From positions 7,649 to 71,648 of the forward strand of contig CBIHOX010000011.1 in NCBI GenBank assembly GCA_966211685.1: a stretch of DNA of 64,000 nucleotides. Reading direction: 5' to 3'. The notes under the pieces are model-generated. The model was not told the DNA's origin and ran no database searches. It saw only the letters and a list, made by a program, of their open reading frames with translations. The number at the start of each line of letters is the position of its first letter. Position 1 is the stretch's first letter. This stretch comes from an uncultured Pseudoduganella sp. (GTDB taxonomy: Bacteria > Pseudomonadota > Gammaproteobacteria > Burkholderiales > Burkholderiaceae_D). A program made the position numbers and the translations under genes. Positions 14,872 to 34,679 of the stretch are shown here, piece by piece.

Positions 14872-14875
14872 CTTG

Positions 14876-19290: not shown

Positions 19291-19326
19291 GATGGTCGTG
19301 GGCGGTGCCCAGAAAATAGGCAGAGT

Positions 19327-19357
19327 AGGAATTGTACGCCGAAAACAATTCCTGACA
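19327..19357 (-). promoter_or_regulatory. Putative P5 promoter overlapped by a 9-bp inverted repeat
   Basis: Plus strand AGGAATTGT-acgccgaaa-ACAATTCCT; minus strand CTGTCA-N16-TACAAT. Confidence 0.55.
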
Positions 19358-19369
19358 GAAGGGTTTTGC

Positions 19370-20602
19370 TTACAACGCCGCCAGTCCTTCCACCCACGCC
19401 ACCTGCCCGGGCAGGCAGACCGTATTCAAATCATATGTTTCCTGGGCAAAGGCGCGGGCACGCGCGCCCAGGCGCGCCCGCTGCGCCGGGTCGCCCAGCA
19501 ATTCCGACACGGTCGACGCCAGGGCGGCAGCGTCGAAGAAATCCACCAGCCGGCCGGTGTCGCCGTCGCGGATGGCTTCGCGCACGGGCGCCGTATCGCT
19601 GGCCACGATGGTGCAGCCGATGCTCATGGCTTCCAGCATGCTCCAGCTCAGCACGAACGGATACGTGAGGTACACGTGCACCATCGACAACTGCAGCAAG
19701 GGGATAAACAAGTCGTAGGGAATCTTGCCCAGGAAGTGCACGCGCTCGCGCTGTTCCGGCGTCAACTGTCCCTGCACTTCCGTGGCAAAAATGTCTTTCC
19801 AGCTGCGGCCGTCAGGCGGACGGCTGCCGTAGCTGACGTCATCGCCACCCACGATCAGCACACGCGCCTGCGGGCGGTTGCGCAACAGTTCGGGCAGCGC
19901 ACGCATGAACACGTGGTAACCGCGGTATGGTTCCAGGTTGCGGTTGACGAAGGTGACGACTTCATCCTGCCGCGTCAGGCGGATGCCGGCCACCTGCAGC
20001 GCCACGTTGGGCGCCGGCGCGGCAGCCTCGGTATCGATGCCTTCGTGGACCACCGTGATGCGCGAACGGAAGCGTTCGGGGAACGTACTGGCCTGCCACA
20101 ACGTGGGGGAAATGCCGGCGTCGGCCACTTCCATGTGCAGCAGCATGTTGGTGTTCTTGACCAGCATGCGCGGCCCGGCTTCGGCCGAATCATTGGGGAA
20201 TTCCGGATCGAAACCGACATCGGCGCCGCTGGCGTGGTAGTAGAATTCGCAGCTCAGGCCCAGTTTCGCCTGCGGCCACACGTCCTTCAGGAACAGGCTT
20301 TCGCCCCAGCCCGGATGCGCCACGATGACGTCCGGCGCAAAGCCGGCCGCCTTCAGCTTCAGGGCGGCGCGATAGCAGGCTTCGCCGCGGATGATCTTGG
20401 TTTCGGTATCGGACAGCCACGGGTGGACATTGGCGCCGTTGCCGCGCTCGACCCCATATTGCAGCACTGTCACACCCTTCCACTGGCCGCTCAATTTGCG
20501 GTTCATGGTCAGGGTGACCACCTTGTGCCCGCGCGCCGCCAGTGCGGGCGCCAGGAACTTGTATTGGGCCGGGAAGTTTTGATGGATAAATAAGATATTC
20601 AT
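19370..20602 (-). CDS. Glycosyltransferase family 4 (GT-B fold)
   Basis: MNILFIHQNFPAQY, PDVIVAHPGWGE, RNLEPYRGYH, HVYLTYPFVLSWSMLEAMSIGC. Start moved to the ATG at 20602. Confidence 0.9.
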   Translation of the reverse strand: MNILFIHQNFPAQYKFLAPALAARGHKVVTLTMNRKLSGQWKGVTVLQYGVERGNGANVHPWLSDTETKIIRGEACYRAALKLKAAGFAPDVIVAHPGWGESLFLKDVWPQAKLGLSCEFYYHASGADVGFDPEFPNDSAEAGPRMLVKNTNMLLHMEVADAGISPTLWQASTFPERFRSRITVVHEGIDTEAAAPAPNVALQVAGIRLTRQDEVVTFVNRNLEPYRGYHVFMRALPELLRNRPQARVLIVGGDDVSYGSRPPDGRSWKDIFATEVQGQLTPEQRERVHFLGKIPYDLFIPLLQLSMVHVYLTYPFVLSWSMLEAMSIGCTIVASDTAPVREAIRDGDTGRLVDFFDAAALASTVSELLGDPAQRARLGARARAFAQETYDLNTVCLPGQVAWVEGLAAL

Positions 20603-20651
20603 GGCGCGCGGCCGCACCGGCGATACACCGGTGCGCCTGGATCGGCAGAGG

Positions 20652-21431
20652 TCAGTTCAGCTTGCTGAGGTTCAGTACACCGCCATCGTTGAGGAAGTCG
20701 GCCGGCTCGGTGGCCGCCAGTTCCTTCATCTCGGCAGCGATTTGCGCACGCACCTGCACCAGCTTGGACAGCAGCGGCAACTGGTGCATCGACAGCAACT
20801 GGCTGTACGCCACCGCCAGCGCGCCGCTGTCGGCCAGCTCGCGCAGCGCATCGCCCGGCAAGGCGTTCAGGGCGGCCTCGTCGACCTTGAACAGGCCATT
20901 GACGGTCTGTTCGCCCTGGGCGCCGCGCAGGGTCAGCGGCCATGGCGCAAGCACCTTGTGCTTTTGCAGCGCGGTGCATGCCATGGTTGCCTGCATGCGG
21001 CTGCGCTCGGCCTGCACCAGGAATTGCAGCATGCCGGCGATCTTTTGCGCCGGCTTGCCATCTTCTTCAAAGAAACGCTCGCCGGCGGCGTCCACCAAGC
21101 CGCTGGCTTCATCGATGCACAGCACGGCTTCATCATTCTGGCGCGCCAGGCGGAACGGATAGCCGCGCAGCGCGGCCGGCACGTACGAACCCAGCCAGCG
21201 GCCATCGGGCGCCACATACAGGTTGACGCCATCCTGCACACCCATCAGCGCCGACAGCACATAACCGTCGCCATCGGCCAGGAAAGCGATCGGCATGGCC
21301 GGCACGGCGGCAGCCAGTTCCGCGGCAGCCAGCGGCACGACGGCGCTGCCGGCGGCAAACAGGTAATTGGCAGGCGCCTTCCAGCGCAGGTTGGCGTGAC
21401 GCTCTTGGGTAATCAGTTGAATGGTGGTCAT
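20652..21431 (-). CDS. sapC: SapC family protein
   Basis: YLFAAGSAVVPLAAAEL...PIAF...LMG...NLYV...W...YVPAALRGYPFRL...LCID...LFEEDG...LQF...FKVDEAAL..L...L...GAL...YSQLLSM pattern of SapC. RBS GAGG before the ATG at 21431. Lies directly downstream of the S-layer-like gene. Confidence 0.85.
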   Translation of the reverse strand: MTTIQLITQERHANLRWKAPANYLFAAGSAVVPLAAAELAAAVPAMPIAFLADGDGYVLSALMGVQDGVNLYVAPDGRWLGSYVPAALRGYPFRLARQNDEAVLCIDEASGLVDAAGERFFEEDGKPAQKIAGMLQFLVQAERSRMQATMACTALQKHKVLAPWPLTLRGAQGEQTVNGLFKVDEAALNALPGDALRELADSGALAVAYSQLLSMHQLPLLSKLVQVRAQIAAEMKELAATEPADFLNDGGVLNLSKLN

Positions 21432-21485
21432 GGGGTCCTCTGTGAAATTTTTGCTGAAGGCGCTCATTATCGGGTGAACGTCCTC

Positions 21486-21521
21486 AGAAAAAACCCCGCC
21501 TCTTAAAAAAGAGGCGGGGTT
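21486..21521 (-). terminator. Rho-independent terminator after the S-layer gene
   Basis: Perfect 12-bp stem AACCCCGCCTCT / AGAGGCGGGGTT followed by a T-run on the minus strand. Confidence 0.85.
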
Positions 21522-21605: not shown

Positions 21606-24600
21606 TTAAGCGGAGAAGTTGGTCGAGGTCAGCGAGTCAGCGGTCACGCCCGACAGGGTACCGATCAGGTCAACCACGATGTTAGCGGTGGTTGCGTCTG
21701 CGCCGGCAGCGGTCGAGGTTACAGCGTACACGTAGGCGTTGCCGCCGCCGTATGCAACAACCGTCAGGTTGCCCGAAGCGGTGGTGCCCAGGGCGCTGGC
21801 GATCAGGGTTTCAACTGCCAGGCCGTCGCCGACTTGGGTTGGAGCCAGGATCGAACCGGCAGCCGATTCGATCTCGATCACGCCACCGGTTGCCACGGTG
21901 ATTGCCGTGCCAGCTGGGTTGGTTACCGTCTGGAAGGCAGTCACGCCAGCCGATGCCACTTTCAGAACGTCAGCCGACGCGCCGGTTGCGGTGAAGCCGG
22001 TGATGGTGTCAGCGCCGGTGGTGATACCGGTTGCTGCGCCACCAGCCAGCGTGGTCAGCGTGAAGGTATCGGTGCCGGTGCCGGCCGTTGCGGTCTGCGC
22101 GGTGGCAGCGTGGAACGTGAAGTTGTTCGCACCGTTAGCCAGTACGTAGTTTTCCACGTTCACGTTACCCGTTGCGGTGCCGGCCGTCGTGAAGGTGACG
22201 GTTTCGGTACCAGCAGCGTTGATGGTCGTGAAGGCGTTGTGCTGTGCCACGGTCATCGATACGGAACCGCCCGAAGCGATGGTTGCCGTGGTGAAGCCTG
22301 CACCGATGGTAGCGCCAGCAATGTTGGAACCAGTTGCCAGGCTCACGATGTCAGCAGCGGTCACTTCGCCGTTCAGCGTACCGGTGAAGGTGCCGCTCAC
22401 GCCCACGGTTACCACGTCGGTTGCCGCGGTGCCGGTGACGGACTGGGCGCCGGTGATGCCGGTCACGGAGATGGCGTTACCAGCAGCATCGCTCAGGGTG
22501 TAGCTTTCCACGTTGGCGTTCGCTGCCACAGCGGTGATTGCCGTGTCAGTGAAGGTTACGGAGTCAGCACCGCCAGCAGCGTTGATGGTGGTGAAGCCAG
22601 CGTACTGAGCCGAGGTCAGCGACAGGTTGCCGGTCAGGTTCAGCACGGTCGCGCCGGTTACGGCACCAGCGTTCACGCCAGCGATGTTAGCGCCGGTGGT
22701 CGCGGTGATGCTGTCCAGAGCTTGCAGCGTGTAGGTACCGGTGACGGTGTTACCGCCCACGTTCACGGTGTCGGTGCCAGCGGAAACAACGTTCACGCCG
22801 GTATCCGATGCCAGAACCGTGAAGGTACGGCCGTCGGTGCCCAGGTTGTAGGTCTCAACACCAGCTTTACCGGTCACAGCGCCAGCGCCGGACAGGGTCA
22901 CGGTGTTGGCACCGGTTGCGCTCAGGGTGGTGATCGCGTTGTGCTGGGTAGCCGACATCGTTACTGCAGCCAGGCCGTCGATGGTCACGGATTCAGCGGT
23001 CAGCGCTGCGCCGCCGTTGATGCCTGCCAGGTTGGTGCCGGTGGTGGTCACAACCAGCGAGTCAGCAGCGCCGGCCAGAGCCAGGGTGCCGGTCGGGGTG
23101 GTGATCGCGCCGGTGTTCACCGTTACGTTGCCAGCGGCCGACACGTTCTGGGCAGCTGCGCCCAGCGTGAAGTTCGAACCGGTAGCCAGTACGTAGCTTT
23201 CAACAGCTGCGTCGCCAGTGTCGGTCAGAGCCGTGGTCACGGTCACGGTGTTGGTGCCCGTTGCGTTGAAGGTGGTTACAGCAACGTGCTGAGCAGCGGT
23301 CATCGAAACAGCAGCAATGCCGTTGATGGTCACGGTTTCAGCAGTCGTGTCCGCGCCGCCGTTGATGCCAGCCAGGCTGGTACCAGTGGTGGTCACAACC
23401 AGGGTGTCGCCAGCGCCAGCCAGAGCCAGGGTGCCGGTTGGAGCGGTGATCGCGCCGGTGTTCACGGTGACGTTGCCAGCAGCCGACACGTTCTGAGCAG
23501 CTGCGCCCAGGGTGAAGGTGGAGCCGGTTTGCACGGTGTACGACTCGATAGCTGCGTTACCGGTCAGGGTAGCAACATCGCTGATGGTCACGGATTGTGC
23601 GCCGGTAGCGGTGAAGCTGGTAGCAGCAGCCAGCGTGTCGAACTGAGCCTTCGTTGCGGTCAGGGCCAGGCCAGCAGCCAAGGTCACGGTGTTGAAGCCG
23701 GTCAGGTTGCCGATGGTCGAGGTGCCGCTGATGGTCAGCGTGTCGGTTGGCAGGGTTGCCGCGGCGTTGACTGCGCCGGTGGTGACGCCATCCTTGAACA
23801 CGTTGTTGGTCGCGTTCGCGGTGAAGTCCACGGTGTACGAGCTGCCCAGGGTGCCAACTTCGAAGTCAGCTTGTGCCAGCGATGCTGGGCTGTTCGACAG
23901 GTTCAGCTGGATGTCGTTCGCGTTCAGCGCGCCGTCGTTGTTGACGTCGATCCACAGGGTGTGGGTGGCGGTATCCAGAACGGCGTCGATGGTGCCGCCA
24001 GCCGAGATCGCGCCTTGAGCTGCGCCGAACGAGCTGTATGCGCCAACGTAGGTGACTGCGCTGGTGTACACGATCTTGTCGGTGCCCGATACGAAGTCGG
24101 TGATGGTGTCAGCATTGTCCGCGCCAACGTCGCTTGCCACGATGTAGAAGCGGTCGGTGCCGGTGCCACCGGTCAGCACGTCTTTGCCAGCGCCGCCCAG
24201 GATCGAGTCGTTGCCTGCGCCACCGATGATGGTGTCGACTTTCGCGCCGCCCAGGATGCGGTCAGCACCTGCGCCGCCGGTTACGCTGTACGAACCGTCC
24301 AGTTCAGCGGTACCAACGAAGTTGAAGGCAGCAGCAGCGTTGGTCAGCGCGGATGCGTCGACGTTCAGCGTTTTGCCAGCTTCCAGGTTGCTGTTCACGG
24401 TGGTGATCGATACGCCGTTGGCGCCGTTGGCTTCAACGAACACGTTTTCGATCTTCGTTACGCCGTTCAGGTTGGCAACTGCGTTGTCAGCAACAACTAC
24501 CAGCTTGTCACCGGTGTTGGTGCCGCCGGTGATCACGTCGGTGCCCGACAGCGAAGCTGCGGTCGAACGTACGGTCATCAGGCCGGTTGCCAGGCTTGCG

Positions 24601-27600
24601 TTGACGGTGTCGTTGCCGCCGGCGCCCAGGTTGATGGTCAGGTTGCTGGAGAAGCCTTCACCCACGTTCACGCTGTCGTCGCCCGTGCCAACGGTGATGT
24701 CTTTCAGGCCGTTCTTGTTGGCGATCGCGTTCACGTTGATGGTGTTGTTGCCGTTGCTCAGCACCAGGTTTTCAACGGAATCCCAGTTGTTGAAGATAGC
24801 GTCGTTCAGGACTGCGGCATCCGTCGTGATCTTGACGGTGTCGGTACCTGCGCCACCTTTCACGGTGTCGGCCGAAGTGATGCCTTCGGTTGCGACAACA
24901 GCGCTGTAGGTGAAGTTGAAGGTGTCGTCGCCGGCACCGCCATCCAGGTAATCAACGCCTTCCACGCCGGAAACTGCGCCGGTACCAGCGGTGATGGTGT
25001 CGTTGCCGTCGCCGCCAACGATCGAATCGTCGCCGTTGCCGCCGATGATCACGTCGTTGCCTGCACCGCCGGTGATGGTGTCTTTACCAGCAGCGGTGGT
25101 CACGGTCCAGCCGCCTGCGCCTACAGTGATCTTGCCGTTTGCGCCGCCGGTCAGGGTGACGGAGCCAGCGCCAGCGCCGGTGGTCACGGTGTGGGTTGCG
25201 GTCGAGCCAGCAGCCGAGTTCAGGGTGATGACGTCTGCGCCCGAGCCCGAGTTCACGGTGAAGGTGCCGGTGCTGGTGCCATTGCCCAGGGTGATGGTGT
25301 CAACGCCGGTGCCGCTGTTCACGGTCACGGATTGTGCAGCAGCAGCGGTCGCTGCGAACGACACGCCGCCCGACAGAGCGGTTGCGTCAACGGTAGCCAG
25401 CTTGGTCGAGCCGATGGCTGCGGTGATGACAACCTTGTCTTCGCCCGACAGGGTCAGCTTGGTCAGGTTGGCGCCATCCAGCGAAGCCGCGGTGATGGTT
25501 TCAACGGTGTTGCCTACGGCGCCGTTGTTGGCGTCTTTGGCGGTCACGGTGACGTTTTCAGCCTGGCTGAACAGCAGCGCGCCGGTCGCGTAGTTAGCGG
25601 TGTCGGTGGTCAGGTTCAGGGTCAGGTTGTCAGCTGCCGTGTCGGTAGCGTGGGTCACGGTCAGGTTGTCCGCGCCAGCGAAGCCGGTGGTTGCTGCACG
25701 GGCGTTCACGTTCACCACCACGTTGTTGGCAACGTTGTTCAGGGCAACAGCGCCATTGGTGCCGTTGTCGAACGAGAAGGTGTTGATCACGTGATCGGTG
25801 CTGCCCGAAGCCTTGGTGCCGCCGTTGCCTGCATCCAGAACACCAGACGTTGCGTCGGTGAAGGTCAGGTTTTCAACGTTGGTGGTGTTGGCGAACGTAT
25901 CGGCGTCAACAGTAACGCTTGCAATGGTGGTGGTCGACACGGTGTCGGTGCCGGTGCCGCCGTTGACGGTGTCGCTATTGCGGTAGTTTGCACCCAGCTT
26001 GATGGTATCGTCGCCGGCGCCGGCGTTCACGTTGGACTTGCCTACGTTAGCCGATACGTCCAGCGTGTCGCTGCCCGAACCGGAGGTTACCGACAGAGCG
26101 GTGCCAGCCAGGGTCACGTAGTTGCCCGAGGTGATGTTCAGGTTGCCGGTGAAGGCGCCTGCATCGATGGTGCCCACGGTGCCGTTCAGGCCAGCGGTGA
26201 TGGTCAGGTTCTGGTTACCAGCGATGGTGACTTTCGAAGCGTCCACGTTCAGCGCGCCGACGACCGATGCTGCGCCGCTGGTGGTGATGGCCACGGTTTC
26301 GATGCCGGTGTTGCCAGCGCCAACCAGTGCGTCGGTGTTGGTACCGATCTTGATGGTGCCGGTGCTGTTACCGTTCAGCAGGATCTTCTGGGTGTCGGCT
26401 GCGCCAGCAACAGCGGCAGCTTTGTAAGCCAGGGTCAGGTCGGAAGCGTTCAGTGCGTTAGCAACTTCCAGGTCAACGATCTGGCCGATGTTTTTCACGG
26501 TCAGGTTGTTGTTCGAGGACGACGAACGAACGGTCTTCAGTGCGGAGTCAACGTTTTCCAGGCCCAGGATGGTCGCGCCTTCAGCTGCTGGAGCTTGAGC
26601 TTGAACTTCCAGAACTTCGATGTTTTTCACGACGAAGCCTTGTACCTGGCTTGCGTTGGTGATGGCAGCGTTGTTGGTGGACGAGGTAACCACGCGCAGG
26701 GTGTCGGTGCCCACGCCGCCGTCGATCGAGTCGGACGATTGCAGGGTGGTGGATTGACCGGTCTGGCCGATGATGGTGTCATCGTTCAGGCCAGCGATGA
26801 CCACGTCGGTTGCGCTGATGGTCAGGGCCTTGCTCTGTGGGCCGGCTTCAACAACGGCGTCTTGAGCAACTTTCTGGTGAGCAGCAACCAGCAGTTGAGC
26901 AGCAACCAGCGGATCGTTGATGGCTTTGATGGCGGCAGCGGTAGCGGCCGAAGCAACGTCGTCAGCGGTCGACTTGGTGGTGCCTACAACAGCGGCGAAG
27001 TCAGCAGCGGCGGTGTTAGCAACAACAACGCTGGCCAGTGCTTTTTCGATCGCGGTTTTTTCGTTGGTGGCAGCGGTAGCCAGAGCCGTGGCGTTGGCAA
27101 CGGATTTGGACAGGTCGAATGCAGCTTTCGCGTCAACGTACGCTTTGGTTGCTGCAGCGGCAGCGTCAGCGTCGGTCTTGGCGGTAGCCAGTGCCGTGGT
27201 GTAAGCACCTTTCTTGGCATCGGAGATCGCTTGAGCAGCAGCTTCAACAGCGTCTTCACCAGCTTTGATGGCGTCGTCAACAACGGTCTTGGCAGCGGCA
27301 GCAGCGGTCACAACGGTGTTAGCGTTGGTCACGGCGGTAGCGGCAGCGGTGTTGTCAGCGGCGTTGACGGTCTTGTCAGCGGCAGCTTTCAGTGCGTCAG
27401 CAGCGGTCTTGGCATCGGCAGCGGCGGCAACAGCGGCGTCTGCAGCGGTCTTCGCGTTGGCGATGGTGGTCGGCACCTTGGCGACAGCAGCGGCTGCGTC
27501 GGCGATGGTCTTGTTGCCAGCGGTCAGGTTGGCGGCAGCGGTGTTCGAAGCAGCCAGCTTGGTGGCGGCGTCTTGCTGTGCTTTAGCCAGGTTGAAGTCG

Positions 27601-28928
27601 GCAACCGACTTGGTCGCGCCGGTAGCAGCGATTTCGTCAGTGTTACCACCAGCAACGGCAGCGTTGTACGCGTCGGTAGCAGCTTTGGCATCGGCTTGTG
27701 CGGTGGTCAGCACGCCTTGGGCTGCGTCGGATGCGGCTTTGGCATCGTTTGCTGCGGTGGTCAGAGCGGCAACGTCAACAGCGGCAGCGGCCGTTTTCAG
27801 GGCAGCGGCAGCGTCTTGGTCGATCTTGATCTGGGCAGCAGCGGTGGTAGCAGCAGCGGCCTTGGCGGTAGCGTTGGCGTTAGCGGTGGTAACGGCAGCT
27901 TGTGCGTCGATCACGGCTTGCACCAGTGGCTTCTCAGCAACAGCAGCGGCTACGTGGGCAGCAGCGTCGGTCACCAGCTTGGCAGCAGCGGTCTGAGCAG
28001 CAGCAGCGTCTGCAACAGCTTTGATTGCCAGCGCGTCGTCAGCGGTGGTGGCGGTTTTCAGTGCTTTGGCCAGGTAGTTGTCGGCAGCGGCTTTCGCGGT
28101 GTCGGCAGCGGTCTTGGCAGCGTCGGCAGCAGCTTTCTCGGTGTCGGCAGCGGTCTTGGCAGCGTCAACCTTGGCGATGGTGTCCGAACCTTCCAGGGCA
28201 ACTTTAGCAGCTGCGGCAGCGGTAGCGGCGGTAGCGGCAGCGGTGGCGGCAGCGGTTACTGGCGCGGTCAGGGCGGCGGCAGCCAGGTTCGCGTCGAACT
28301 CGGCAGCAGCGTTGGCGTCGTAGGTGCGCAGCACTTCGTTGGTCACCAGTGCCAGGGCAGCAGGTGCGGTAGCAGCAGCCAGCGAGGCAGCGTCCTTAAC
28401 CGAGTTCAGGAACGACGTACCCCATGCGTTTGCCTGTGGGCCGCTGTAAGCCAGTTGCAGGGCAACGCTGTCAGCGATTTTTGCGGTGAACGCGGTAGCA
28501 GCAGCCAGCTTGCTTGCAACGGTTTCAACGTCTTGGCCTTTTGCGTTCGAGAACATCGTGTTCAGCGTGAAGCTGACAGCTTGCGCTTTGACTTCGGCTT
28601 TCTCAGCAGCGGTCAGTTTCGTGTTGGCGGCGTTGGCGGCATCAACACTGTTCAGGTAGTCGGTGTAGAAGTTCAGGCCTTCCTGGTCCGGCAGACGACC
28701 GAACGAGTTCTGGTACATCTTGGCAACCAGTTGCTGGTTGCTCAGTTTCGGCGTTACATAGATCGCCTTGTACTCTTCGTTGTTGGCAAAGAAGTTTGCC
28801 ACGGCTTTCATGTCGATCTTGTTTGCAGCCAGCAGATCTTCCCAAAACTTCAAACCGGCTGGGTCAGCGGGACGGTTGTAGTAAGCGATATACAGTTTTT
28901 GCAGATCGGAGGTGTACTGTGTTGCCAT
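21606..28928 (-). CDS. Giant S-layer-like T1SS substrate (2440 aa): N-terminal SapA/DUF4214-type domain, ~490-aa Ala-rich stalk, Thr/Gly/Asn-rich beta-helix region with RTX motifs
   Basis: N-terminus DLQKLYIAYYNRPADPAGLKFW...NQQLVAKMYQNSFGRLPDQEGLNFY. Many GGxGxD motifs, no signal peptide, RBS AGGAG, high-expression codon bias, and adjacency to sapC and a T1SS gene. Confidence 0.85.
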   Translation of the reverse strand: MATQYTSDLQKLYIAYYNRPADPAGLKFWEDLLAANKIDMKAVANFFANNEEYKAIYVTPKLSNQQLVAKMYQNSFGRLPDQEGLNFYTDYLNSVDAANAANTKLTAAEKAEVKAQAVSFTLNTMFSNAKGQDVETVASKLAAATAFTAKIADSVALQLAYSGPQANAWGTSFLNSVKDAASLAAATAPAALALVTNEVLRTYDANAAAEFDANLAAAALTAPVTAAATAAATAATAAAAAKVALEGSDTIAKVDAAKTAADTEKAAADAAKTAADTAKAAADNYLAKALKTATTADDALAIKAVADAAAAQTAAAKLVTDAAAHVAAAVAEKPLVQAVIDAQAAVTTANANATAKAAAATTAAAQIKIDQDAAAALKTAAAAVDVAALTTAANDAKAASDAAQGVLTTAQADAKAATDAYNAAVAGGNTDEIAATGATKSVADFNLAKAQQDAATKLAASNTAAANLTAGNKTIADAAAAVAKVPTTIANAKTAADAAVAAAADAKTAADALKAAADKTVNAADNTAAATAVTNANTVVTAAAAAKTVVDDAIKAGEDAVEAAAQAISDAKKGAYTTALATAKTDADAAAAATKAYVDAKAAFDLSKSVANATALATAATNEKTAIEKALASVVVANTAAADFAAVVGTTKSTADDVASAATAAAIKAINDPLVAAQLLVAAHQKVAQDAVVEAGPQSKALTISATDVVIAGLNDDTIIGQTGQSTTLQSSDSIDGGVGTDTLRVVTSSTNNAAITNASQVQGFVVKNIEVLEVQAQAPAAEGATILGLENVDSALKTVRSSSSNNNLTVKNIGQIVDLEVANALNASDLTLAYKAAAVAGAADTQKILLNGNSTGTIKIGTNTDALVGAGNTGIETVAITTSGAASVVGALNVDASKVTIAGNQNLTITAGLNGTVGTIDAGAFTGNLNITSGNYVTLAGTALSVTSGSGSDTLDVSANVGKSNVNAGAGDDTIKLGANYRNSDTVNGGTGTDTVSTTTIASVTVDADTFANTTNVENLTFTDATSGVLDAGNGGTKASGSTDHVINTFSFDNGTNGAVALNNVANNVVVNVNARAATTGFAGADNLTVTHATDTAADNLTLNLTTDTANYATGALLFSQAENVTVTAKDANNGAVGNTVETITAASLDGANLTKLTLSGEDKVVITAAIGSTKLATVDATALSGGVSFAATAAAAQSVTVNSGTGVDTITLGNGTSTGTFTVNSGSGADVITLNSAAGSTATHTVTTGAGAGSVTLTGGANGKITVGAGGWTVTTAAGKDTITGGAGNDVIIGGNGDDSIVGGDGNDTITAGTGAVSGVEGVDYLDGGAGDDTFNFTYSAVVATEGITSADTVKGGAGTDTVKITTDAAVLNDAIFNNWDSVENLVLSNGNNTINVNAIANKNGLKDITVGTGDDSVNVGEGFSSNLTINLGAGGNDTVNASLATGLMTVRSTAASLSGTDVITGGTNTGDKLVVVADNAVANLNGVTKIENVFVEANGANGVSITTVNSNLEAGKTLNVDASALTNAAAAFNFVGTAELDGSYSVTGGAGADRILGGAKVDTIIGGAGNDSILGGAGKDVLTGGTGTDRFYIVASDVGADNADTITDFVSGTDKIVYTSAVTYVGAYSSFGAAQGAISAGGTIDAVLDTATHTLWIDVNNDGALNANDIQLNLSNSPASLAQADFEVGTLGSSYTVDFTANATNNVFKDGVTTGAVNAAATLPTDTLTISGTSTIGNLTGFNTVTLAAGLALTATKAQFDTLAAATSFTATGAQSVTISDVATLTGNAAIESYTVQTGSTFTLGAAAQNVSAAGNVTVNTGAITAPTGTLALAGAGDTLVVTTTGTSLAGINGGADTTAETVTINGIAAVSMTAAQHVAVTTFNATGTNTVTVTTALTDTGDAAVESYVLATGSNFTLGAAAQNVSAAGNVTVNTGAITTPTGTLALAGAADSLVVTTTGTNLAGINGGAALTAESVTIDGLAAVTMSATQHNAITTLSATGANTVTLSGAGAVTGKAGVETYNLGTDGRTFTVLASDTGVNVVSAGTDTVNVGGNTVTGTYTLQALDSITATTGANIAGVNAGAVTGATVLNLTGNLSLTSAQYAGFTTINAAGGADSVTFTDTAITAVAANANVESYTLSDAAGNAISVTGITGAQSVTGTAATDVVTVGVSGTFTGTLNGEVTAADIVSLATGSNIAGATIGAGFTTATIASGGSVSMTVAQHNAFTTINAAGTETVTFTTAGTATGNVNVENYVLANGANNFTFHAATAQTATAGTGTDTFTLTTLAGGAATGITTGADTITGFTATGASADVLKVASAGVTAFQTVTNPAGTAITVATGGVIEIESAAGSILAPTQVGDGLAVETLIASALGTTASGNLTVVAYGGGNAYVYAVTSTAAGADATTANIVVDLIGTLSGVTADSLTSTNFSA

Positions 28929-29369: not shown

Positions 29370-30782
29370 TCACTTGGGCTTGGTCCAATACGTGGCGCCT
29401 TCCGTGGTGCGGGCCGCATCGAGACGCCCCTGGAACAGGTAGGCCGCAGTGCCCCCATTCTCCGAACTCAACACCCCTGTCACATTGACATTGCTGTTGT
29501 TGTTGTAACGTGGCGACTCTCCATAGAAGCGGCCATCGCTCCCCACCGTGCCGCTGGAACGCATGTTGAAACGCTCGGCCTGCGCCACCAGGTCAAAACT
29601 GGTGGTGTACGTTTTTTGGTCAAAATTGAAATTCAATACACCGTTTTCCACTTTGGCCACTTCCGCCGGCGTGAAACTGTCGCGCAAAATATACGCTTCA
29701 CTGTCTTTCAAGGTGAAACCAGCTGAACTGCGTTCCGGTATTTGATAATCGGCGCCCGGCGTGCGGAACAAGGCAAAGTTGCCTTTCATGTCCACCAGCT
29801 CCGCACCGCTCTTCAGCATGGCGACCAGGTCCACCTTGGCGGTTTTATCGAGCAACGGTTGCCAGCGTCCCCAGACGATCTTCCGCTCAGGCTGCGGCGG
29901 TTCAGGCGGCGTCACCACGGGCGGGTCCACCACCGGCGGCGTCACCACCGGCGGGACCACCACCACCCCGCCGCCCGTGTCGGGTTTTTCCAGCACTGGC
30001 GGCACGGTAACGATCGGGTCCGGAGTCGTCGTTGGCGGCTGCTGCACCACTTGCGCCACGCGCTGCTTCAACTCCTGGTCTTTTTTTGCTTCCAGGCTGG
30101 GTTCCGGCGGCCCGCCCGCCATGCCGCCTTTAGGTTCATCCGTGCGTGGCGGCGCCACCACATCCGGCGCCAAAGTGCCAGACGGCAACAATTGTGGCGC
30201 CGCCTGGCCGCGGCGCACCTGCAACAGCAGGCCGCGCTGCGCGGCGGACAATTCACGGCTGGCCTTGCCTTCGCATGGGCCGGTACCGTCCGGGCTGCAC
30301 GCGCCGGCAAATCCACTAATAGTAATACCGCCAGACAGCACGGTGACCCGGGTTACTTCCTGGTCGGCCGACACGGCGAAATCCGTCCCACGCACCCCAA
30401 TGGCCGCCACCGGCGTATTGAAACGGAAATTCTGGCGCGCCTGCTTGACGGCTTCGCCGGACTGGCTGCGCGCCACCCCTTCCAGCAATTCCAGCTTGAT
30501 GCGGGTATTGGCCGGGTTGGCGGCGTCGATGTGGTAATTGACGATGCGGGCCTTGCTCGACGGCCGGACAATGAACAGGCCGTTGTCGATGGTTTTCACA
30601 TACACATAGCCATCGCCTCCGGTGACCAGCATATCCCCTTCCCGCACCACGCCGTTCAATTCGGCGGCGCGGTCGGCGACCTTGACCTGGCCTGCGACAA
30701 AAATGATTTTCCCGGCATCGGCCGCGAAGGCTGTTGCGCCCCACAAGCCGAGCCCGACGATAGCTAATAGATTACGCAACAT
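29370..30782 (-). CDS. Exported FecR-domain protein with Pro-rich linker and C-terminal beta-rich domain
   Basis: Signal peptide MLRNLLAIVGLGLWGATAFA, FecR-type ...FRFNTPVAAIGVRGTDFAV...VTVLSGGI, linker PVVTPPVVDPPVVTPPEPPQPE, alternating aromatic/polar strands at the C-terminus. Confidence 0.85.
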   Translation of the reverse strand: MLRNLLAIVGLGLWGATAFAADAGKIIFVAGQVKVADRAAELNGVVREGDMLVTGGDGYVYVKTIDNGLFIVRPSSKARIVNYHIDAANPANTRIKLELLEGVARSQSGEAVKQARQNFRFNTPVAAIGVRGTDFAVSADQEVTRVTVLSGGITISGFAGACSPDGTGPCEGKASRELSAAQRGLLLQVRRGQAAPQLLPSGTLAPDVVAPPRTDEPKGGMAGGPPEPSLEAKKDQELKQRVAQVVQQPPTTTPDPIVTVPPVLEKPDTGGGVVVVPPVVTPPVVDPPVVTPPEPPQPERKIVWGRWQPLLDKTAKVDLVAMLKSGAELVDMKGNFALFRTPGADYQIPERSSAGFTLKDSEAYILRDSFTPAEVAKVENGVLNFNFDQKTYTTSFDLVAQAERFNMRSSGTVGSDGRFYGESPRYNNNSNVNVTGVLSSENGGTAAYLFQGRLDAARTTEGATYWTKPK

Positions 30783-30837
30783 ATGATTCCTTTTCCTTCT
30801 GGCGCCCGGATATGGTGATGGGCGATGGCGCGGATGT

Positions 30838-30867
30838 GCCGGATTACGCTGCGCTAATCCGGCCTAC
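30838..30867. repeat. GTAG REP
   Basis: gccggattacgctgcgctaatccggcctac, identical to 9865-9894. Confidence 0.85.
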
Positions 30868-30967
30868 ATCACAAGCTGCAGGGGCGGATCGCGGTCCGCC
30901 GTTGCTTGAGGGTCTGCAGGCGGCCTTCCCCTGTTACCGTAATTATCCCTGTGGATACACAAGTTAC

Positions 30968-30983
30968 AGTGACGACCATCACA
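30968..30983. promoter_or_regulatory. Near-perfect CRP-type box AGTGA-CGACCA-TCACA in the fecR/cyclase divergent region
   Basis: 9/10 consensus match. GATAAT on the minus strand (30947-30942) lies at class II distance, facing the FecR-domain gene. Confidence 0.7.
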
Positions 30984-31128
30984 TTGTACCGAACTTGCCT
31001 GCCTCGGCCGCCAAGGTTACACATTGTTGCAAAGCAGGGTCTCCATATATATAGAGGGTAGGAAGGCTGACGTATAATAAAAGCTCAGTCTCCCCATCTT
31101 CCAGCGCAGCACTTTCAGGCGATCCCCT

Positions 31129-33066
31129 TTGTTGAGTTTTACGGCATTGTCCACGTGGCGTTCCTTTTTCCGTATACCGGCCATCCCGGCGCATGCGGTG
31201 CTGGCCGCGATCGGGCTGGCTGCCGTGCTGTTGACCGCGGCCGCCCAGTGGGGCATGCCGGCCGGCGCCACCTTCCCCGCCGATGAATGGCTGCGCGACC
31301 GCATCCTGCGCCTGCGCAGCGCGCCCACGCCGGAGCCGCGCATCCTGGTGGTCGATATCGATGAAGCCAGCCTGGCAGAAGTAGGCGCCTGGCCGTGGCC
31401 GCGCGAGCGGCTGGCCACTTTGGCGGAAATCCTGCTGACCCATTACGAAGCACGCGGCGTGGCCTTCGATATCCTGCTGCCCACGGCCGGCGATCCGCAG
31501 GGCGACCAGCGCCTGATGATGCTGGCGGCGCATGGGCCGCTGGTGCTGGCGCAGGCATTCGATTATCCGGAAGCCCAGCGCCAGCCGCTGCGCGCCGGAC
31601 AGCTCGGCGGCGCCCGCCCCGGCCGCGGCACGGCCCAGCTGGAAGCTTCCGGCTACATCGCCAACCACCCGCAATTCGCTAATGCGCGCAATATCGGCAA
31701 CATCGGCTTCCTGCCCGATGCCGATGGCGCGCTGCGCCGCGTGCCGCTGCTCACCAGTTTCAATGGCGCGCTGTATCCTTCGCTGTCGCTGGCGCTGCTC
31801 GATTGCTGCAGCGGCGGCCCCAAACTCGTGGTGACGGACCCGGCGCCGTTGCGGGTGGATTTCCAGCGCGACTGGAATGCCTATACCGTGGTCAGCGCCG
31901 CCGACATCCTCGACGAACGCATTGCCCCCGAGAGCGCTTCCGGCCGCCTGGTGCTGGTCGGCTCCTCGTCGATGGGCACCGGCGACCGCGTGACCACACC
32001 ATTGGCGCGCAACCGCCCCGGCCTCGGCGTGCAGGCCGCCGTGCTGTCGACCATCCTGGACCGCCAGCAAGGACTGGCGCCCCGCCCCTGGCCGGGCCGC
32101 CTGATCGCCTGCGTGTTTACCGCCATCGTGGCGCTGGTGAGCGTGTGGAGTTTCCCGCGCCTGTCCGCCATGGCCAGCGTCAGCCTGCTCGGCGCCGGCA
32201 TGGCGGCGTGGCTGGGCGTGGCGTGGGTGGTGTTGCCGCACGACGACGCCATGGTCAGCAGCGCCCCGCTGGCCAGTTGCCTGTTCTTGCTGGCGTTTGC
32301 CATTCCTTACCAGTGGCACGTCAGCCAGCGCCGTTCGCGCCGCCTGCTCGATACCCTGCGCCAATATGTGGCGCCCGCCGTCGTGACGGAACTGTTGCGC
32401 AGCGACATGGCCGATCCCTTGCAGCCGCGCCTGCTCGACGTCACCACCCTGATTGCCGACCTGCAGGGTTACACGTCGCACGTGGAAGCGCTGCCGCTCG
32501 ATGAAGCCGCGGAATTGACCAGCAGTTTCCTCGATTGCCTCACCGCCCCCGTGATTGAACAGCAGGGCACCTTGGATAAATATACCGGCGACGGCTTGGT
32601 GGCATTCTGGGGTGCGCCGTTGCCCAATGATAACCATGCTGATTTGGCATTGGACGCGGCACGTGATATTGTAGCCAGAGTGCAACAATTGAGCGCCCAG
32701 CGCCGTGCCGCCGGCTTCCCGCCGCTGCGGGTGCGGATCGGCATTGAAAGCGGCCCCGCCATGGCGGGCGATTTCGGCAGCGTGTTCCGCAGCGTGTATA
32801 CCGCGGTCGGCGACAGTGTGAACACGGCGGCGCGCCTGGAGCAGGCCGCCAGGGATTTCCCGCACGACGTCATCATTGGCGCCGGTACAGCACAACGCAC
32901 GCGCCGCCACCGGCTCATGTTGCTGGGCGAACGGCAATTACGCGGCAAAGATAAACCAACCATTCTTTATACGTTTGACAGCAGCATGGATGTCTCCCTC
33001 ACCAACGGCCTCACTGGCGCCAGCCAGGCTGCCGCCACGCCGGCAAAGGCAGCGTTTACTGCATGA
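31129..33066 (+). CDS. CHASE2-domain class III adenylate cyclase (start codon uncertain)
   Basis: N-terminal TM, CHASE2 motifs ILVVDIDEASL...GAWPWPRERLA...FDILLP...D.DGALRR, three TMs, cyclase motifs LIADLQGYT, DKYTGDGLVAFWG and YTAVGDSVNTAARLE. Both Asp residues, the ATP-specifying Lys/Thr and the Asn/Arg are present. Confidence 0.92.
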   Translation: MLSFTALSTWRSFFRIPAIPAHAVLAAIGLAAVLLTAAAQWGMPAGATFPADEWLRDRILRLRSAPTPEPRILVVDIDEASLAEVGAWPWPRERLATLAEILLTHYEARGVAFDILLPTAGDPQGDQRLMMLAAHGPLVLAQAFDYPEAQRQPLRAGQLGGARPGRGTAQLEASGYIANHPQFANARNIGNIGFLPDADGALRRVPLLTSFNGALYPSLSLALLDCCSGGPKLVVTDPAPLRVDFQRDWNAYTVVSAADILDERIAPESASGRLVLVGSSSMGTGDRVTTPLARNRPGLGVQAAVLSTILDRQQGLAPRPWPGRLIACVFTAIVALVSVWSFPRLSAMASVSLLGAGMAAWLGVAWVVLPHDDAMVSSAPLASCLFLLAFAIPYQWHVSQRRSRRLLDTLRQYVAPAVVTELLRSDMADPLQPRLLDVTTLIADLQGYTSHVEALPLDEAAELTSSFLDCLTAPVIEQQGTLDKYTGDGLVAFWGAPLPNDNHADLALDAARDIVARVQQLSAQRRAAGFPPLRVRIGIESGPAMAGDFGSVFRSVYTAVGDSVNTAARLEQAARDFPHDVIIGAGTAQRTRRHRLMLLGERQLRGKDKPTILYTFDSSMDVSLTNGLTGASQAAATPAKAAFTA

Positions 33067-34325
33067 CGCATCGCCTTGCCCTGACAGCCTGGCTGCTGGC
33101 CATGGCCGCGCTGCCGGCCGCGGCGCAGGACGCCCCCCGGGAGCCCGCGCCGCCGCTGCCCGTGGTGGAAATACCCGGTCCGCACCAGCAGGATTGGTAC
33201 CAGGCCGCGCTGCAGTCGATTGCCGAGGGCCGCAAGCATGACGCCAGCGCGGAACTGGAGCGTGTCATCCGCAATGAACCGCTGCACGCCGGCGCCTGGC
33301 TGGACCTGGCGCTGATCCAGTGCAGCCTGGGCCACGCCGAGGAAGCCTTCCGCCTGTTCGGTATCATCGAGGAGCGCTTCAAGCCGCCGCCGGCATTCCT
33401 GGAATTGATCGCCAGTTACCGCCAGCAGGGATGCGACCGGTGGGAAGTGCAAAGCCAGGCCAGCCTCACGCTGGCGCGCGGCATCGACCAGAACGTCAAC
33501 CAGGGCCCGAGCGCCAGCAGTTACTCGGTCGGCACCGCCGCGCTCAGCGTGGAATATCCGGTGTCGCCGGAATTCAGGCCGAAACACGACCAGTATACGT
33601 CGCTGTCCGGCGATTATCTGCGCGACCTTACCAGCAATGGCACGGTCGGCATCGTGCAATTCCAGTTCCGGCGCAATGATGAATTGAAACAATATGACAA
33701 TGCATCGCTGTTCGGCAGCGTCGAGTCGCCGTGGCGCCTGGGCAACTTCAGCGGCCGCCATGTCGGCACGGCCGGCCTGCTGACACTGGGCGGCCACCTG
33801 TACCAGCGCCAGGCCCAGTTGCAGGAGCGCGTCACGGTACCCCTGCCCGGCAAGGTGCAATTGACGATGATGACCAGCATGACGCGCCTGAATTACGTCA
33901 CGTTGAACAATTTCGATTCCAGCACGGCGGAACTGCGCGGCGTGCTCAGTTACAGTGCCGGCGCCGGCAGCGTGCGCGCCGCCATCAGCCTGCTCAATGA
34001 CCATGCGATGGCCGACCGCCCCGGCGGCAACCGCCATGGCCAGGTGCGCTCGGTGTTGTTCCGCCAGAACCTGGGCATGCGCATCACGGGCGAACTCGGC
34101 TACACCGACCAAACCTGGCAAAGCGCCACCGCATATGCGCCGGGCGCACTGGACATCATCCGGCAGCAGCGCACGCAATCGCTGACGGCCAGCCTGTTTT
34201 ACCCGATCGGCAAGAACCAGATGGTGCAGCTGGAAGCGCGGAAAGTACGAAATCAGGAAAACATTCCGATCTTTCAGTACAATAATCGGCAGTTACAGCT
34301 AAGTTGGCAGTGGCAGGGTTTGTGA
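33063..34325 (+). CDS. Exported TPR plus outer-membrane beta-barrel protein (Slam/NsrA-like architecture)
   Basis: Signal peptide, TPR-like helices (EPLHAGAWLDLALIQCSLGHAEEA), amphipathic beta strands ending QLQLSWQWQGL. ATGA overlap with the cyclase stop. Confidence 0.75.
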   Translation: MTHRLALTAWLLAMAALPAAAQDAPREPAPPLPVVEIPGPHQQDWYQAALQSIAEGRKHDASAELERVIRNEPLHAGAWLDLALIQCSLGHAEEAFRLFGIIEERFKPPPAFLELIASYRQQGCDRWEVQSQASLTLARGIDQNVNQGPSASSYSVGTAALSVEYPVSPEFRPKHDQYTSLSGDYLRDLTSNGTVGIVQFQFRRNDELKQYDNASLFGSVESPWRLGNFSGRHVGTAGLLTLGGHLYQRQAQLQERVTVPLPGKVQLTMMTSMTRLNYVTLNNFDSSTAELRGVLSYSAGAGSVRAAISLLNDHAMADRPGGNRHGQVRSVLFRQNLGMRITGELGYTDQTWQSATAYAPGALDIIRQQRTQSLTASLFYPIGKNQMVQLEARKVRNQENIPIFQYNNRQLQLSWQWQGL

Positions 34326-34334
34326 GTGTAAAGA

Positions 34335-34679
34335 ATGGCAAATGAAATTTGGGGTATCGCTTTACTGGTTGGTATCCTGGGCCTGTCGGCCGGTTGCCTG
34401 GTCCCCAACCGGTGGTTGCCTGCCCGCATGCCCAACGATAAGTTGATGCATTTCGTCGCGTTTGCCGTCCTGGCCGGAGTGGCCATGCAAATCGCACAAA
34501 CCCGTATCGAAGCGGCCTGGTGGATGCTGGGCTTGCTGGTGGCGGGTTGGATAATTGAATGTCTGCAACAATTGCTGCCGGACCGCGGCTTCAGCTGGCG
34601 CGACATTGCCGCCAACGCGGCCGGCATCGTATTTGCCGCCGGCTGTACCCTGGCCTACCAAAGCCTGCCGATTTCGTGA
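34335..34679 (+). CDS. VanZ-like small membrane protein
   Basis: NDKLMHFVAFAVLA...IECLQQLLPDRGFSWRDIAANAAGI, a VanZ-like pattern. Confidence 0.8.
   Translation: MANEIWGIALLVGILGLSAGCLVPNRWLPARMPNDKLMHFVAFAVLAGVAMQIAQTRIEAAWWMLGLLVAGWIIECLQQLLPDRGFSWRDIAANAAGIVFAAGCTLAYQSLPIS

What the first reader, a model, noticed from the sequence alone, without database searches (positions are those of the whole stretch)
26840..28300. ~490-residue Ala/Thr/Lys/Asp stalk between anchor and lattice domains of a 2440-aa S-layer-like protein
After the anchor domain comes a nearly Pro-free and aromatic-poor segment (AAATAAATAATAAAAAAK...AKTAADAA...), then about 1750 aa of beta-helix/RTX sequence. RsaA and SapA types are around 1000 aa and lack such a stalk. 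If continuous helix (0.15 nm per residue) it could reach about 70 nm. Inference: a stilted S-layer or fibrillar coat held well off the outer membrane, leaving a compartment for long O-antigen and the tethered proteases.
Basis: partly seen in the sequence, partly recalled or inferred. Interest (0 to 1): 0.75.

Follow-up and report, generated by a model that had tools for sequence, protein, structure and literature searches.

The report
Helical rod in major surface protein
A soil or freshwater Massilia/Pseudoduganella-type bacterium makes a very highly expressed 2440-residue secreted surface protein in which a conserved 490-residue alanine-rich helical rod separates the attachment domain from the calcium-binding body, so the outer coat may be held off the cell at a distance that evolution can change.

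Summary
Residues 210-697 of a 2440-aa protein (window 21606-28928, minus strand) are 41% Ala, 12% Thr, 1% Pro and 1.6% aromatic. They lie between a DUF4214-type N-terminal domain and a 1743-aa Thr/Gly/Asn-rich body with RTX blocks.

The segment is not an orphan. Ten relatives, five of them at the same locus in Pseudoduganella-group genomes, carry a homologous rod of 343-606 aa. The rods share Gly and T-x-x-D-D turn motifs. Most other cargo proteins at this locus lack the rod.

AlphaFold2 with the family alignment predicts eight helices of 39-89 residues (mean pLDDT 79.5). Polar residues in the family profile repeat every 3.48 residues, and turn-prone positions recur about every 45. A multi-helix coiled-coil-like rod of very roughly 15-25 nm is therefore more likely than one 70-nm helix. 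I had no coordinates and could not measure this.

The gene has the strongest ribosomal-type codon bias of 5838 ORFs. It ends in a terminator-like hairpin and sits in a cluster with SapC, five DUF4214-tailed proteases, a type I secretion system and O-antigen export genes. That fits an abundant coat protein rather than a minor adhesin.

A crystalline lattice, O-antigen anchoring and a protease-holding compartment remain untested. I class it as a new variant of a known kind.

The parts
21606..28928 (-). Gene for the 2440-aa T1SS-type surface protein (P0001). No signal peptide; the protein ends ...DLIGTLSGVTADSLTSTNFSA.
   Evidence: Its codon bias ranks first of 5838 ORFs.
28302..28928 (-). N-terminal helical domain, aa 1-209, of DUF4214 / phycobilisome-linker type. 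It is the presumed cell-surface attachment module, and the same domain type ends the five neighbouring proteases.
   Evidence: Pfam PF13946, E 9e-11. A profile of the domain hits ApcE linker repeats at E 1e-6. AF2 pLDDT is about 90, and Foldseek matches 3osj_C at probability 1.0. The domain matches the protease tails at E 1e-8 to 1e-11.
26838..28301 (-). Alanine-rich helical rod ('stalk'), aa 210-697. AF2 helices are 205-246, 251-289, 295-382, 386-427, 430-518, 523-607, 610-648 and 656-695.
   Evidence: Composition. AF2 with the family alignment gives pLDDT 75-89 over the rod. Homologous rods occur in ten relatives. Family-profile polar periodicity is 3.48 residues.
28041..28061 (-). Conserved turn 1, LKTATTA(DD), aa 290-296. 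First of three K-T-x-T-T-x-D-D type turns.
   Evidence: AF2 helix break at 290-294. Turn-score peak 0.87 in the family alignment. Motif positions in relatives are listed.
27636..27653 (-). Invariant Gly turn, AGGNTD, aa 426-431. G428 is invariant in 11 of 11 sequences.
   Evidence: Alignment A3. AF2 helix break at 428-429.
27351..27380 (-). Conserved turn 2, ADKTVNAADN, aa 517-526. D525 is invariant.
26955..26990 (-). Conserved turn 3, VVGTTKSTADDV, aa 647-658. T651 and D656 are invariant.
   Evidence: Turn score 0.91.
26793..26852 (-). Rod-to-body junction, VEAGPQSKALTISATDVVIA. Relatives read LPANF.AKTFTLTTG.D at this point. Beta strands begin at aa 709.
21609..26837 (-). Body, aa 698-2440, rich in Thr, Ala, Gly and Asn. 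It holds RTX beta-roll blocks at about aa 1250-1340 (24909-25181) and 1470-1650 (23979-24521), ~115-aa repeats, and a C-terminal end of the kind seen in T1SS cargo.
   Evidence: Pfam PF00353. PDB phmmer hits to CyaA and serralysin RTX blocks. A 345-nt repeat at 22896-23528.
21492..21521 (-). Intrinsic-terminator-like hairpin (13-bp stem with 8 GC pairs, then a T run), 85 nt after the stop codon.
20652..21467 (-). SapC-family gene.
   Evidence: PF07277, E 5e-62. It is the only copy in the genome.
19370..20617 (-). GT4 glycosyltransferase gene.
1593..19425 (-). Five serralysin-type (M10 plus RTX) protease genes, each ending in a DUF4214 pair, plus one 171-aa ORF at 12309-12824.
   Evidence: Their codon bias is average, z 0.0-0.5.
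1..1404 (-). 5' part of the PrtD-type T1SS ABC transporter gene. The MFP and TolC-like genes follow just outside the window.
   Evidence: TIGR01842 at 775 bits, above its cut-off. Genome ORFs at C11:5616-7268 and C11:4324-5874.
29370..43717 (.). Conserved upstream neighbours: FecR-domain gene (-), then CHASE2 cyclase, TPR protein, Crp, Wzm, Wzt (with Wzt_C), FkbM methyltransferase and a 1506-aa glycosyltransferase (+).
   Evidence: The same gene order holds in more than 30 relatives' loci.

Best explanation
The 490-residue Ala/Thr/Asp/Lys segment is a folded, all-alpha rod module. It is built from about eleven ~45-residue amphipathic helical stretches. These are joined by conserved short turns: one invariant Gly turn and three K-T-x-T-T-x-D-D turns in this protein.

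The rod sits between a DUF4214-type N-terminal domain and a large Ca2+-binding beta-rich body. The N-domain is the likely surface-glycan or surface attachment module, and the same module tags five co-encoded secreted proteases. The whole protein is the dominant cargo of the adjacent type I secretion system and is among the most highly expressed proteins of the cell.

The rod most likely acts as a rigid spacer of defined length between the attachment point and the exposed body. That length changes in evolution by gain or loss of ~110-150-residue units, giving family rods of 343, 366-375, 493-497 and 606 aa.

What is shown: composition, conservation, predicted helicity, turn motifs, 3.48-residue amphipathic periodicity in the family, gene context and codon bias. 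What is inferred: antiparallel (spectrin- or MCP-like) packing, a net length of roughly 15-25 nm, the spacer role, attachment through the N-domain, and whether the body forms a lattice or a brush of fibrils.
For: Composition and uniqueness in the genome.

Homologous rods are present in L019, L029, L031, L034, L047 and P0021-P0025, with invariant G428, D385, D525, T651 and D656. Six sequences have rods of 343-344 aa, which argues for a length constraint, and the larger classes differ by whole units. P0001 scores 167 bits against the L019 N-domain plus rod, whereas rod-less relatives score 100 bits or less.

AF2 with the family alignment gives pLDDT 79.5 and eight helices of 39-89 aa, with beta strands only from aa 709. 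Family-profile polar periodicity is 3.48 residues, with summed power 35 against a shuffle 99th percentile of 21. Turn propensity has a period of 45 residues, with power 24.8 against a block-shuffle 95th percentile of 23.6.

The gene is the positional orthologue of the cargo gene in a locus conserved across more than 30 Oxalobacteraceae genomes, between the FecR gene and the T1SS ABC/MFP/OMP genes. Its codon bias ranks first of 5838 ORFs (z +5.5) and tracks ribosomal-gene preferences in both directions, r = 0.93. A terminator-like hairpin follows the gene. RTX blocks are present and there is no signal peptide.
Against: No coordinates were available, so fold-back versus extended geometry and the length estimate were not measured. 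Foldseek found no significant structural relative (best rod-type hits have E > 0.1). The AF2 alignment holds only 11 sequences, and pTM is 0.41.

The single sequence shows no significant heptad signal. phmmer of the rod alone found nothing among 1.84 billion representatives, so homology rests on alignment landmarks and synteny. The 45-residue period is only marginally significant.

Attachment through DUF4214 has never been demonstrated biochemically.
Confidence: 0.55

Rival explanations
1. The rod is an in-plane or inter-subunit assembly element. Helices from neighbouring subunits bundle as intermolecular coiled coils into a mesh or into lattice vertices. The segment would then build the layer rather than lift it.
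For: Heptad-like 3.48-residue periodicity in the family. Long helices of 85-89 aa. High pLDDT with low pTM is compatible with partner-dependent packing. Known stalks such as tetrabrachion, Deinococcus SlpA and Lpp are homo-oligomeric coiled coils (my own knowledge).
Against: Conserved tight turns about every 45-130 residues favour intramolecular hairpins. No oligomer prediction could be run.
Confidence: 0.2
2. The protein is a giant RTX adhesin or surface fibril and does not form a lattice. The rod is simply an extender, like the repeat regions of LapA- or MpIBP-type adhesins, and the coat is a brush of fibrils.
For: Its size of 2440 aa, the RTX blocks and the ~115-aa repeats in the C-terminal third. 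The commonest cargo at the same locus in relatives is a ~650-aa protein of N-domain, helical region and a small C-terminal domain, which looks fibrillar rather than lattice-forming. There is no sequence similarity to RsaA.
Against: The codon bias is the strongest in the genome, as expected for a bulk structural protein. No Pfam match at E<=0.1 other than DUF4214, RTX and a sub-threshold LRR_5 hit, so no Ig-like extender or retention-module domain was detected. No LapG/LapD-type genes were seen in the window.
Confidence: 0.25
3. The N-domain and helix act as a retention plug. The protein leaves C-terminus first, while the pre-folded N-terminal helical part stalls in or under the TolC-like channel and tethers the protein through the secretion pore.
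For: T1SS cargo exits C-terminus first, and LapA-type adhesins are retained this way (my own knowledge). Ala-rich helices would fold without calcium.
Against: The same DUF4214 module sits at the extreme C-terminus of five T1SS proteases, and of Psh, where it must be exported first. A multi-helix rod of 490 aa does not fit a 14-nm channel. No LapG/LapD partners are present in the window.
Confidence: 0.07
4. The segment is a flexible low-complexity, possibly O-glycosylated, linker with no defined structure or length function.
For: Low-complexity composition with 12% Thr. A GT4 gene and a SapC gene lie directly downstream. phmmer finds no homologue of the segment alone.
Against: Only 1% Pro and 2% Gly with 41% Ala. 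Helix is predicted throughout at pLDDT 75-89. Turn motifs are invariant, and six relatives share a rod length of 343-344 aa. There is amphipathic periodicity.
Confidence: 0.05

Closest known systems
RsaA of Caulobacter crescentus (T1SS-secreted, O-antigen-anchored S-layer protein)
   Same: No signal peptide. Ca2+-dependent beta-rich body. An alpha-helical N-terminal domain proximal to the cell. A dedicated T1SS and O-antigen genes nearby. Very high expression. A SapC-family gene also exists in Caulobacter (control).
   Different: RsaA is 1026 aa, and its two domains are joined by a 5-residue linker (PMC6978808); here the join is 488 residues. There is no detectable sequence similarity. The N-domain here is DUF4214 / phycobilisome-linker type, not RsaA-NTD type.
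Psh (PP_1794) of Pseudomonas putida KT2440, an RTX-DUF4214 protein (bioRxiv 10.64898/2026.09.02.748959)
   Same: T1SS cargo that combines RTX repeats with a helix-rich DUF4214 domain. It is encoded near T1SS and O-antigen genes and is proposed to coat the cell surface.
   Different: Psh is small and carries DUF4214 at the C-terminus, with no rod. O-antigen binding is a model there, not a demonstrated interaction.
Stalked S-layers and envelope spacers: Staphylothermus tetrabrachion, Sulfolobales SlaB, Deinococcus SlpA, and Braun lipoprotein Lpp (alanine-zipper)
   Same: A long alpha-helical, coiled-coil-type element sets the distance between an anchor and an outer layer (my own knowledge).
   Different: Those are homo-oligomeric parallel coiled coils anchored in a membrane or in peptidoglycan, in archaea or Deinococcus. 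This one is in a T1SS cargo of a betaproteobacterium. It has conserved internal turns that suggest intramolecular fold-back, and its anchor is probably a glycan-binding domain.
Spectrin / alpha-actinin rod repeats and alanine-rich rods of Gram-positive adhesins (antigen I/II A-region)
   Same: An elongated rod made of long helices linked by short turns. The length is modular. These are the best, though non-significant, Foldseek neighbours.
   Different: No significant structural or sequence match. The unit here is about 110-150 aa with ~45-aa segments and 41-56% Ala.

Membership tests
DUF4214 (PF13946) domain proteins | Match to the Pfam model above its gathering score | tested here: met
   42.1 bits against a 23.2-bit cut-off, E 9e-11, aa 44-94. 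A profile of the N-domain also hits phycobilisome linker repeats.
T1SS-secreted RTX S-layer proteins (RsaA / SapA type) | No N-terminal signal peptide, RTX Ca2+-binding repeats, and a C-terminal secretion region | tested here: met
   The N-terminus MATQYTSDLQKLY has no hydrophobic leader. PF00353, E 2.4e-13. RTX blocks match CyaA and serralysin. The C-terminal signal itself is inferred only.
T1SS-secreted RTX S-layer proteins (RsaA / SapA type) | Dedicated ABC/MFP/OMP secretion genes in the same locus | tested here: met
   A PrtD-type ABC gene scores 775 bits, above the cut-off, with MFP and TolC-like genes next to it. These genes are directly adjacent to the cargo gene in orthologous loci.
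T1SS-secreted RTX S-layer proteins (RsaA / SapA type) | Sequence homology to RsaA or SapA | tested here: not met
   phmmer against all PDB chains at E<=1 returned only RTX blocks; from my own knowledge the RsaA crystal and cryo-EM structures are in the PDB, so a similarity should have shown. SapA was not tested directly.
T1SS-secreted RTX S-layer proteins (RsaA / SapA type) | Very abundant protein | tested here: inconclusive
   Codon bias ranks first of 5838 ORFs and mirrors ribosomal genes. This is an indirect proxy.
T1SS-secreted RTX S-layer proteins (RsaA / SapA type) | Self-assembles into a 2-D paracrystalline lattice on LPS | not testable with these tools
   Needs EM or cryo-ET.
Canonical coiled-coil stalks (tetrabrachion / SlpA / Lpp type) | Sustained heptad (about 3.5-residue) periodicity of core positions | tested here: inconclusive
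   Not significant in the single sequence. Significant in the 11-sequence profile: period 3.48, power 35 against a shuffle 99th percentile of 21, strongest in helix 430-518. Oligomeric state is unknown.
Spectrin-like three-helix repeat rods | Structural match to spectrin-repeat folds, with three helices per repeat | tested here: inconclusive
   The Foldseek hit to beta2-spectrin repeats 14-16 has E 0.52, probability 0.66 and TM 0.31. Helix lengths in ~43-residue units run 1,1,2,1,2,2,1,1, which only partly fits.
LapA-type giant RTX adhesins | N-terminal retention module with a LapG site, LapD/LapG partners, and Ig-like extender repeats | tested here: not met
   The N-terminus is DUF4214, and the only other Pfam matches at E<=0.1 are RTX and a sub-threshold LRR_5 hit, so no Ig-like repeats were found. 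No LapG/LapD-type genes were seen among the window's genes. The rest of the genome was not searched.

The most novel reading that the evidence does not exclude
This would be a stilted surface layer in a Gram-negative bacterium. The rod would hold the Ca2+-bound outer body some 15-25 nm beyond the zone where the DUF4214 domains attach, probably at capped O-antigen. That would create an extracellular inter-space in which the five DUF4214-tailed metalloproteases are parked. The height of this space would be set genetically by the number of ~110-150-residue rod units (2, 3 or 4 in known relatives).
Probability: 0.2. Interest if true: 0.8.

Novelty: new variant of a known kind. Interest (0 to 1): 0.55.

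Why it matters
S-layers exported by type I secretion are understood almost entirely from RsaA, where the anchor and lattice domains touch. Here an apparently dominant surface protein has a conserved, modular helical rod between anchor and body. If that reading holds, coat height in Gram-negative bacteria would be an evolvable variable.

The system is open to experiment. Cultured strains carry rods of different length: P. danionis DSM 103461, P. rivuli FT92W, P. aquatica FT127W and P. namucuonensis CGMCC 1.11014. Rod-less cargo occurs at the same locus in Duganella sp. OV510 and Massilia agilis JCM 31605.

The locus also bears on what DUF4214 binds. The domain appears here on the coat protein and on five secreted proteases, next to O-antigen export genes.

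Tried and rejected
- **phmmer of the rod alone** against 1.84 billion representatives found only the query itself. Composition correction hides the relatives. They were found instead through the N-domain profile, synteny, and a search with the L019 N-domain plus rod.
- **A first MAFFT alignment** with rod-less homologues smeared them across the rod, so I did not use it for folding.
- **Single-sequence AF2** gave pLDDT 54 and was used only for helix boundaries.
- **Foldseek against PDB** with both models gave no significant match.
- **NCBIfam** gave no hit.
- **Single-sequence Fourier tests** for heptads were negative. Only the family profile gave a signal.
- **Literature searches** for S-layers in Massilia, Pseudoduganella, Duganella or Janthinobacterium, and for alanine-rich stalks in T1SS S-layers, found nothing relevant.
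- **Recent tandem-repeat expansion** as the origin of the segment was rejected.
- **Low-GC foreign DNA** as the cause of the low GC3 was rejected. C-ending codons such as AAC, ATC, CTG and ACC are enriched along with GCT and GTT, exactly as in ribosomal genes.
- **Matching of rod length to the FkbM/WbdD-like terminator** looks unlikely. That protein aligns over a similar span (465-476 aa) next to 343-aa and 497-aa rods. This was not analysed further.
Full report
**Observation.** The window holds two fully overlapping long ORFs at 21585-28943 (+) and 21606-28928 (-). The minus-strand product is a plausible protein. The plus-strand product is Gly/Arg/Val-rich nonsense. Residues 210-697 of the 2440-aa protein (window 26838-28301) are 41% Ala, 12% Thr, 8.4% Asp, 7.8% Lys, 1% Pro and 1.6% aromatic. 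The flanks have 21% Ala (residues 1-209) and 16% Ala with 13% Gly (residues 698-2440).

In the whole 6.39-Mb assembly, only two other real proteins have a comparably Ala-rich, Pro/Gly-poor 200-residue window. Both are FHA/TpsA-like giants with a different, Glu/Lys-rich repeat. The segment is not a recent tandem DNA array.

**Anatomy of the protein.** Residues 1-209 match DUF4214 (PF13946, E 9e-11). As a family profile they match phycobilisome linker repeats. AF2 models them at pLDDT of about 90, and Foldseek matches a phycobilisome linker domain at probability 1.0. The body carries RTX nonapeptide blocks at about aa 1250-1340 and 1470-1650 and ~115-aa repeats. There is no signal peptide. No similarity to RsaA or any other solved S-layer protein was found.

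**Context.** On the same strand the gene is followed by:
- a terminator-like hairpin;
- a SapC-family gene and a GT4 glycosyltransferase gene;
- five serralysin-type proteases, each ending in a DUF4214 pair;
- a complete PrtD-type type I secretion system, whose ABC gene begins at the window edge and whose MFP and TolC-like genes lie just outside.

Upstream lie a FecR-domain gene, a divergent CHASE2 cyclase / TPR / Crp module, and O-antigen ABC-export genes: Wzm, Wzt with a Wzt_C domain, an FkbM methyltransferase and a large glycosyltransferase.

**Organism and orthologues.** Titles of related loci place the genome in the Massilia/Pseudoduganella group of Oxalobacteraceae. The gene order from O-antigen genes through Crp, TPR, CHASE2 and FecR to the cargo gene and the T1SS is kept in more than 30 genomes. 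The cargo gene at that position varies widely in architecture:
- about 16 loci encode a ~650-aa protein with the N-domain, an acidic helical region and a small C-terminal domain;
- about 8 loci encode 880-1430-aa proteins in which the N-domain runs straight into the beta-rich part;
- about 11 loci show only a ~195-aa N-domain ORF;
- one locus encodes a 2491-aa protein of a different build;
- five loci encode the same N-domain, Ala-rich rod and beta body as here (P. danionis, P. rivuli, P. aquatica, P. namucuonensis and a Burkholderiaceae MAG).

Five more rod-bearing proteins came from the protein collection (P0021-P0025). The rod is therefore a minority architecture that recurs, and it is not an orphan. 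phmmer with the rod alone found nothing. That result reflects composition correction rather than absence of relatives.

**Is the rod a conserved structure?** In the 11-sequence alignment A3 the rods align with invariant landmarks: D385, G428 (the A-x-AGD/GGN turn), D525, T651 and D656. Rod lengths fall into classes: 343-344 aa in six sequences, 366, 375 (twice), 493 (this protein), 497 and 606. The number of T-x-x-D-D turns rises from 2 to 3 to 4 with length, so the rod grows by units of about 110-150 residues. A length held to within one residue in six sequences (four named species, one unclassified isolate and one MAG) argues against a floppy linker.

**Fold.** Single-sequence AF2 gave an all-helical but low-confidence model (pLDDT 54). 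With alignment A3 the mean pLDDT rose to 79.5, and to 75-89 over the rod. That model has eight helices: 205-246, 251-289, 295-382, 386-427, 430-518, 523-607, 610-648 and 656-695. The breaks fall at the conserved turns, and beta strands begin at residue 709.

In the single sequence no heptad signal passes shuffling controls. In the family profile, polar positions recur every 3.48 residues, with summed power 35 against a shuffle 99th percentile of 21. The signal is strongest in helix 430-518. This is the signature of amphipathic, supercoiled helices. Turn propensity along the alignment peaks at a 45-residue period, which is marginally significant (24.8 against a block-shuffle 95th percentile of 23.6). 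The strongest turns lie 44, 47, 133, 95, 131 and 38 residues apart, close to multiples of 44-47.

Foldseek gave no significant match. The nearest neighbours were spectrin, alpha-actinin and talin rods and chemoreceptor hairpins.

I had no coordinates, so the geometry is inferred. Short conserved loops between long amphipathic helices suggest antiparallel fold-back and an elongated multi-helix rod. Summing alternating helix directions, or assuming one three-helix unit per ~130 residues, gives about 15-25 nm.

**Abundant layer or minor adhesin?** I scored every ORF of at least 250 aa for use of the codons preferred by the ribosomal-protein cluster. The gene ranks first of 5838 (z +5.5) and scores higher than the ribosomal genes themselves. 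The rod is its most biased part. The bias follows ribosomal preferences in both directions: GCT and GTT are raised, and so are AAC, ATC, CTG and ACC (r = 0.93). Low-GC foreign origin therefore does not explain it. The downstream proteases, SapC and GT4 are average to mildly biased. Together with the terminator-like hairpin, this suggests a strongly expressed unit whose transcription mostly stops at the hairpin, as expected for a bulk coat protein. Direct expression data could not be obtained.

**Anchor.** The same domain type ends all five proteases. It matches the N-domain at E 1e-8 to 1e-11. A 2026 preprint shows that P. putida Psh, an RTX-DUF4214 protein, is exported by a T1SS and protects cells at the surface. 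Its binding to O-antigen is a model, not a measurement. Earlier notes of this scan reached the same unproven reading for DUF4214 tails in other phyla. In RsaA the helical N-terminal domain binds O-antigen and is joined to the lattice domain by five residues. The anchor role here is therefore a reasonable inference and not a result.

**Verdict.** The segment is a conserved, modular, alpha-helical, coiled-coil-like rod. It lies between a DUF4214 attachment-type domain and the RTX body of what is very probably the main T1SS-exported coat protein of this bacterium. It most likely works as a spacer of defined length that evolution can change. Three questions remain open: whether the body forms a crystalline lattice or a brush of fibrils, whether the rod stands radially or bundles between subunits, and whether it creates a space for the tethered proteases. 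I class it as a new variant of a known kind, a T1SS S-layer-like protein with an inserted rod. Interest is 0.55.

Noticed in passing
Outside the window: G000 contig C27:32173-41997 and C27:44655-53798 (+): Two FHA/TpsA-like giant proteins (about 3275 and 3048 aa as read; the second runs into the contig end). Each ends in hundreds of residues of near-perfect (AEEAAAKAAAEAAAKKA)n. This looks like a single-alpha-helix type extension and is unrelated to the rod studied here.
   Followed up: no
Outside the window: G000 C11:6974-7250 (3' end of the T1SS ABC gene whose 5' part is window 1-1404): The PrtD-type ABC transporter carries a C-terminal tail of about 90 residues rich in Gln/Ala and then Ala/Pro (…QQQQQLQAQAQAQ…AAAAAAAAAPAVPAAP…). 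This is unusual for this transporter family.
   Followed up: no
Window 21492-21521 (-): A strong terminator-like hairpin (13-bp stem, T run) lies between the surface-protein gene and the SapC gene. It suggests that most transcripts end before the accessory and protease genes.
   Followed up: partly
Loci L014, L016, L023, L026, L030, L035, L038, L042, L044, L045, L050, L054, L055, L061, L066, L078 (and L003): In most Massilia genomes the cargo at the same conserved locus is a ~650-aa protein. It has the same N-domain, an acidic helical region of about 350 aa, and a small C-terminal domain (…GSDIY.AG…LNTG.LTTGNN.VLEAF…). This is an uncharacterised family.
   Followed up: partly
Loci L020, L021, L027, L041, L046, L052, L053, L059, L071, L073, L080: ORFs of about 195 aa that hold only the N-domain lie next to the same T1SS in several Massilia genomes. 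They may be stand-alone DUF4214-type proteins or truncated cargo genes.
   Followed up: no
Window 28580-28640, aa 97-116 of the protein: This protein's N-domain has a 19-residue Ala/Lys/Glu insertion (AANAANTKLTAAEKAEVKA) that is absent from all aligned relatives.
   Followed up: no
Window 22896-23528: A 345-nt (115-aa) repeat of 1.8 copies at 83% identity lies in the C-terminal third of the body. The same 'MTAAQHNAFTTINAAG…' module recurs about five times and is shared with P0013 and P0014 from other genera.
   Followed up: no
Locus L017 (Pseudoduganella sp. GCM10020061), 9995-17467: At the same locus this species has a 2491-aa cargo with the N-domain, two Ig-like modules and about 25 copies of a ~70-aa Ala/Val-rich repeat (…Y.L.DTAANL…). 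It is followed by a GT4 gene 61% identical to the one in the window.
   Followed up: no
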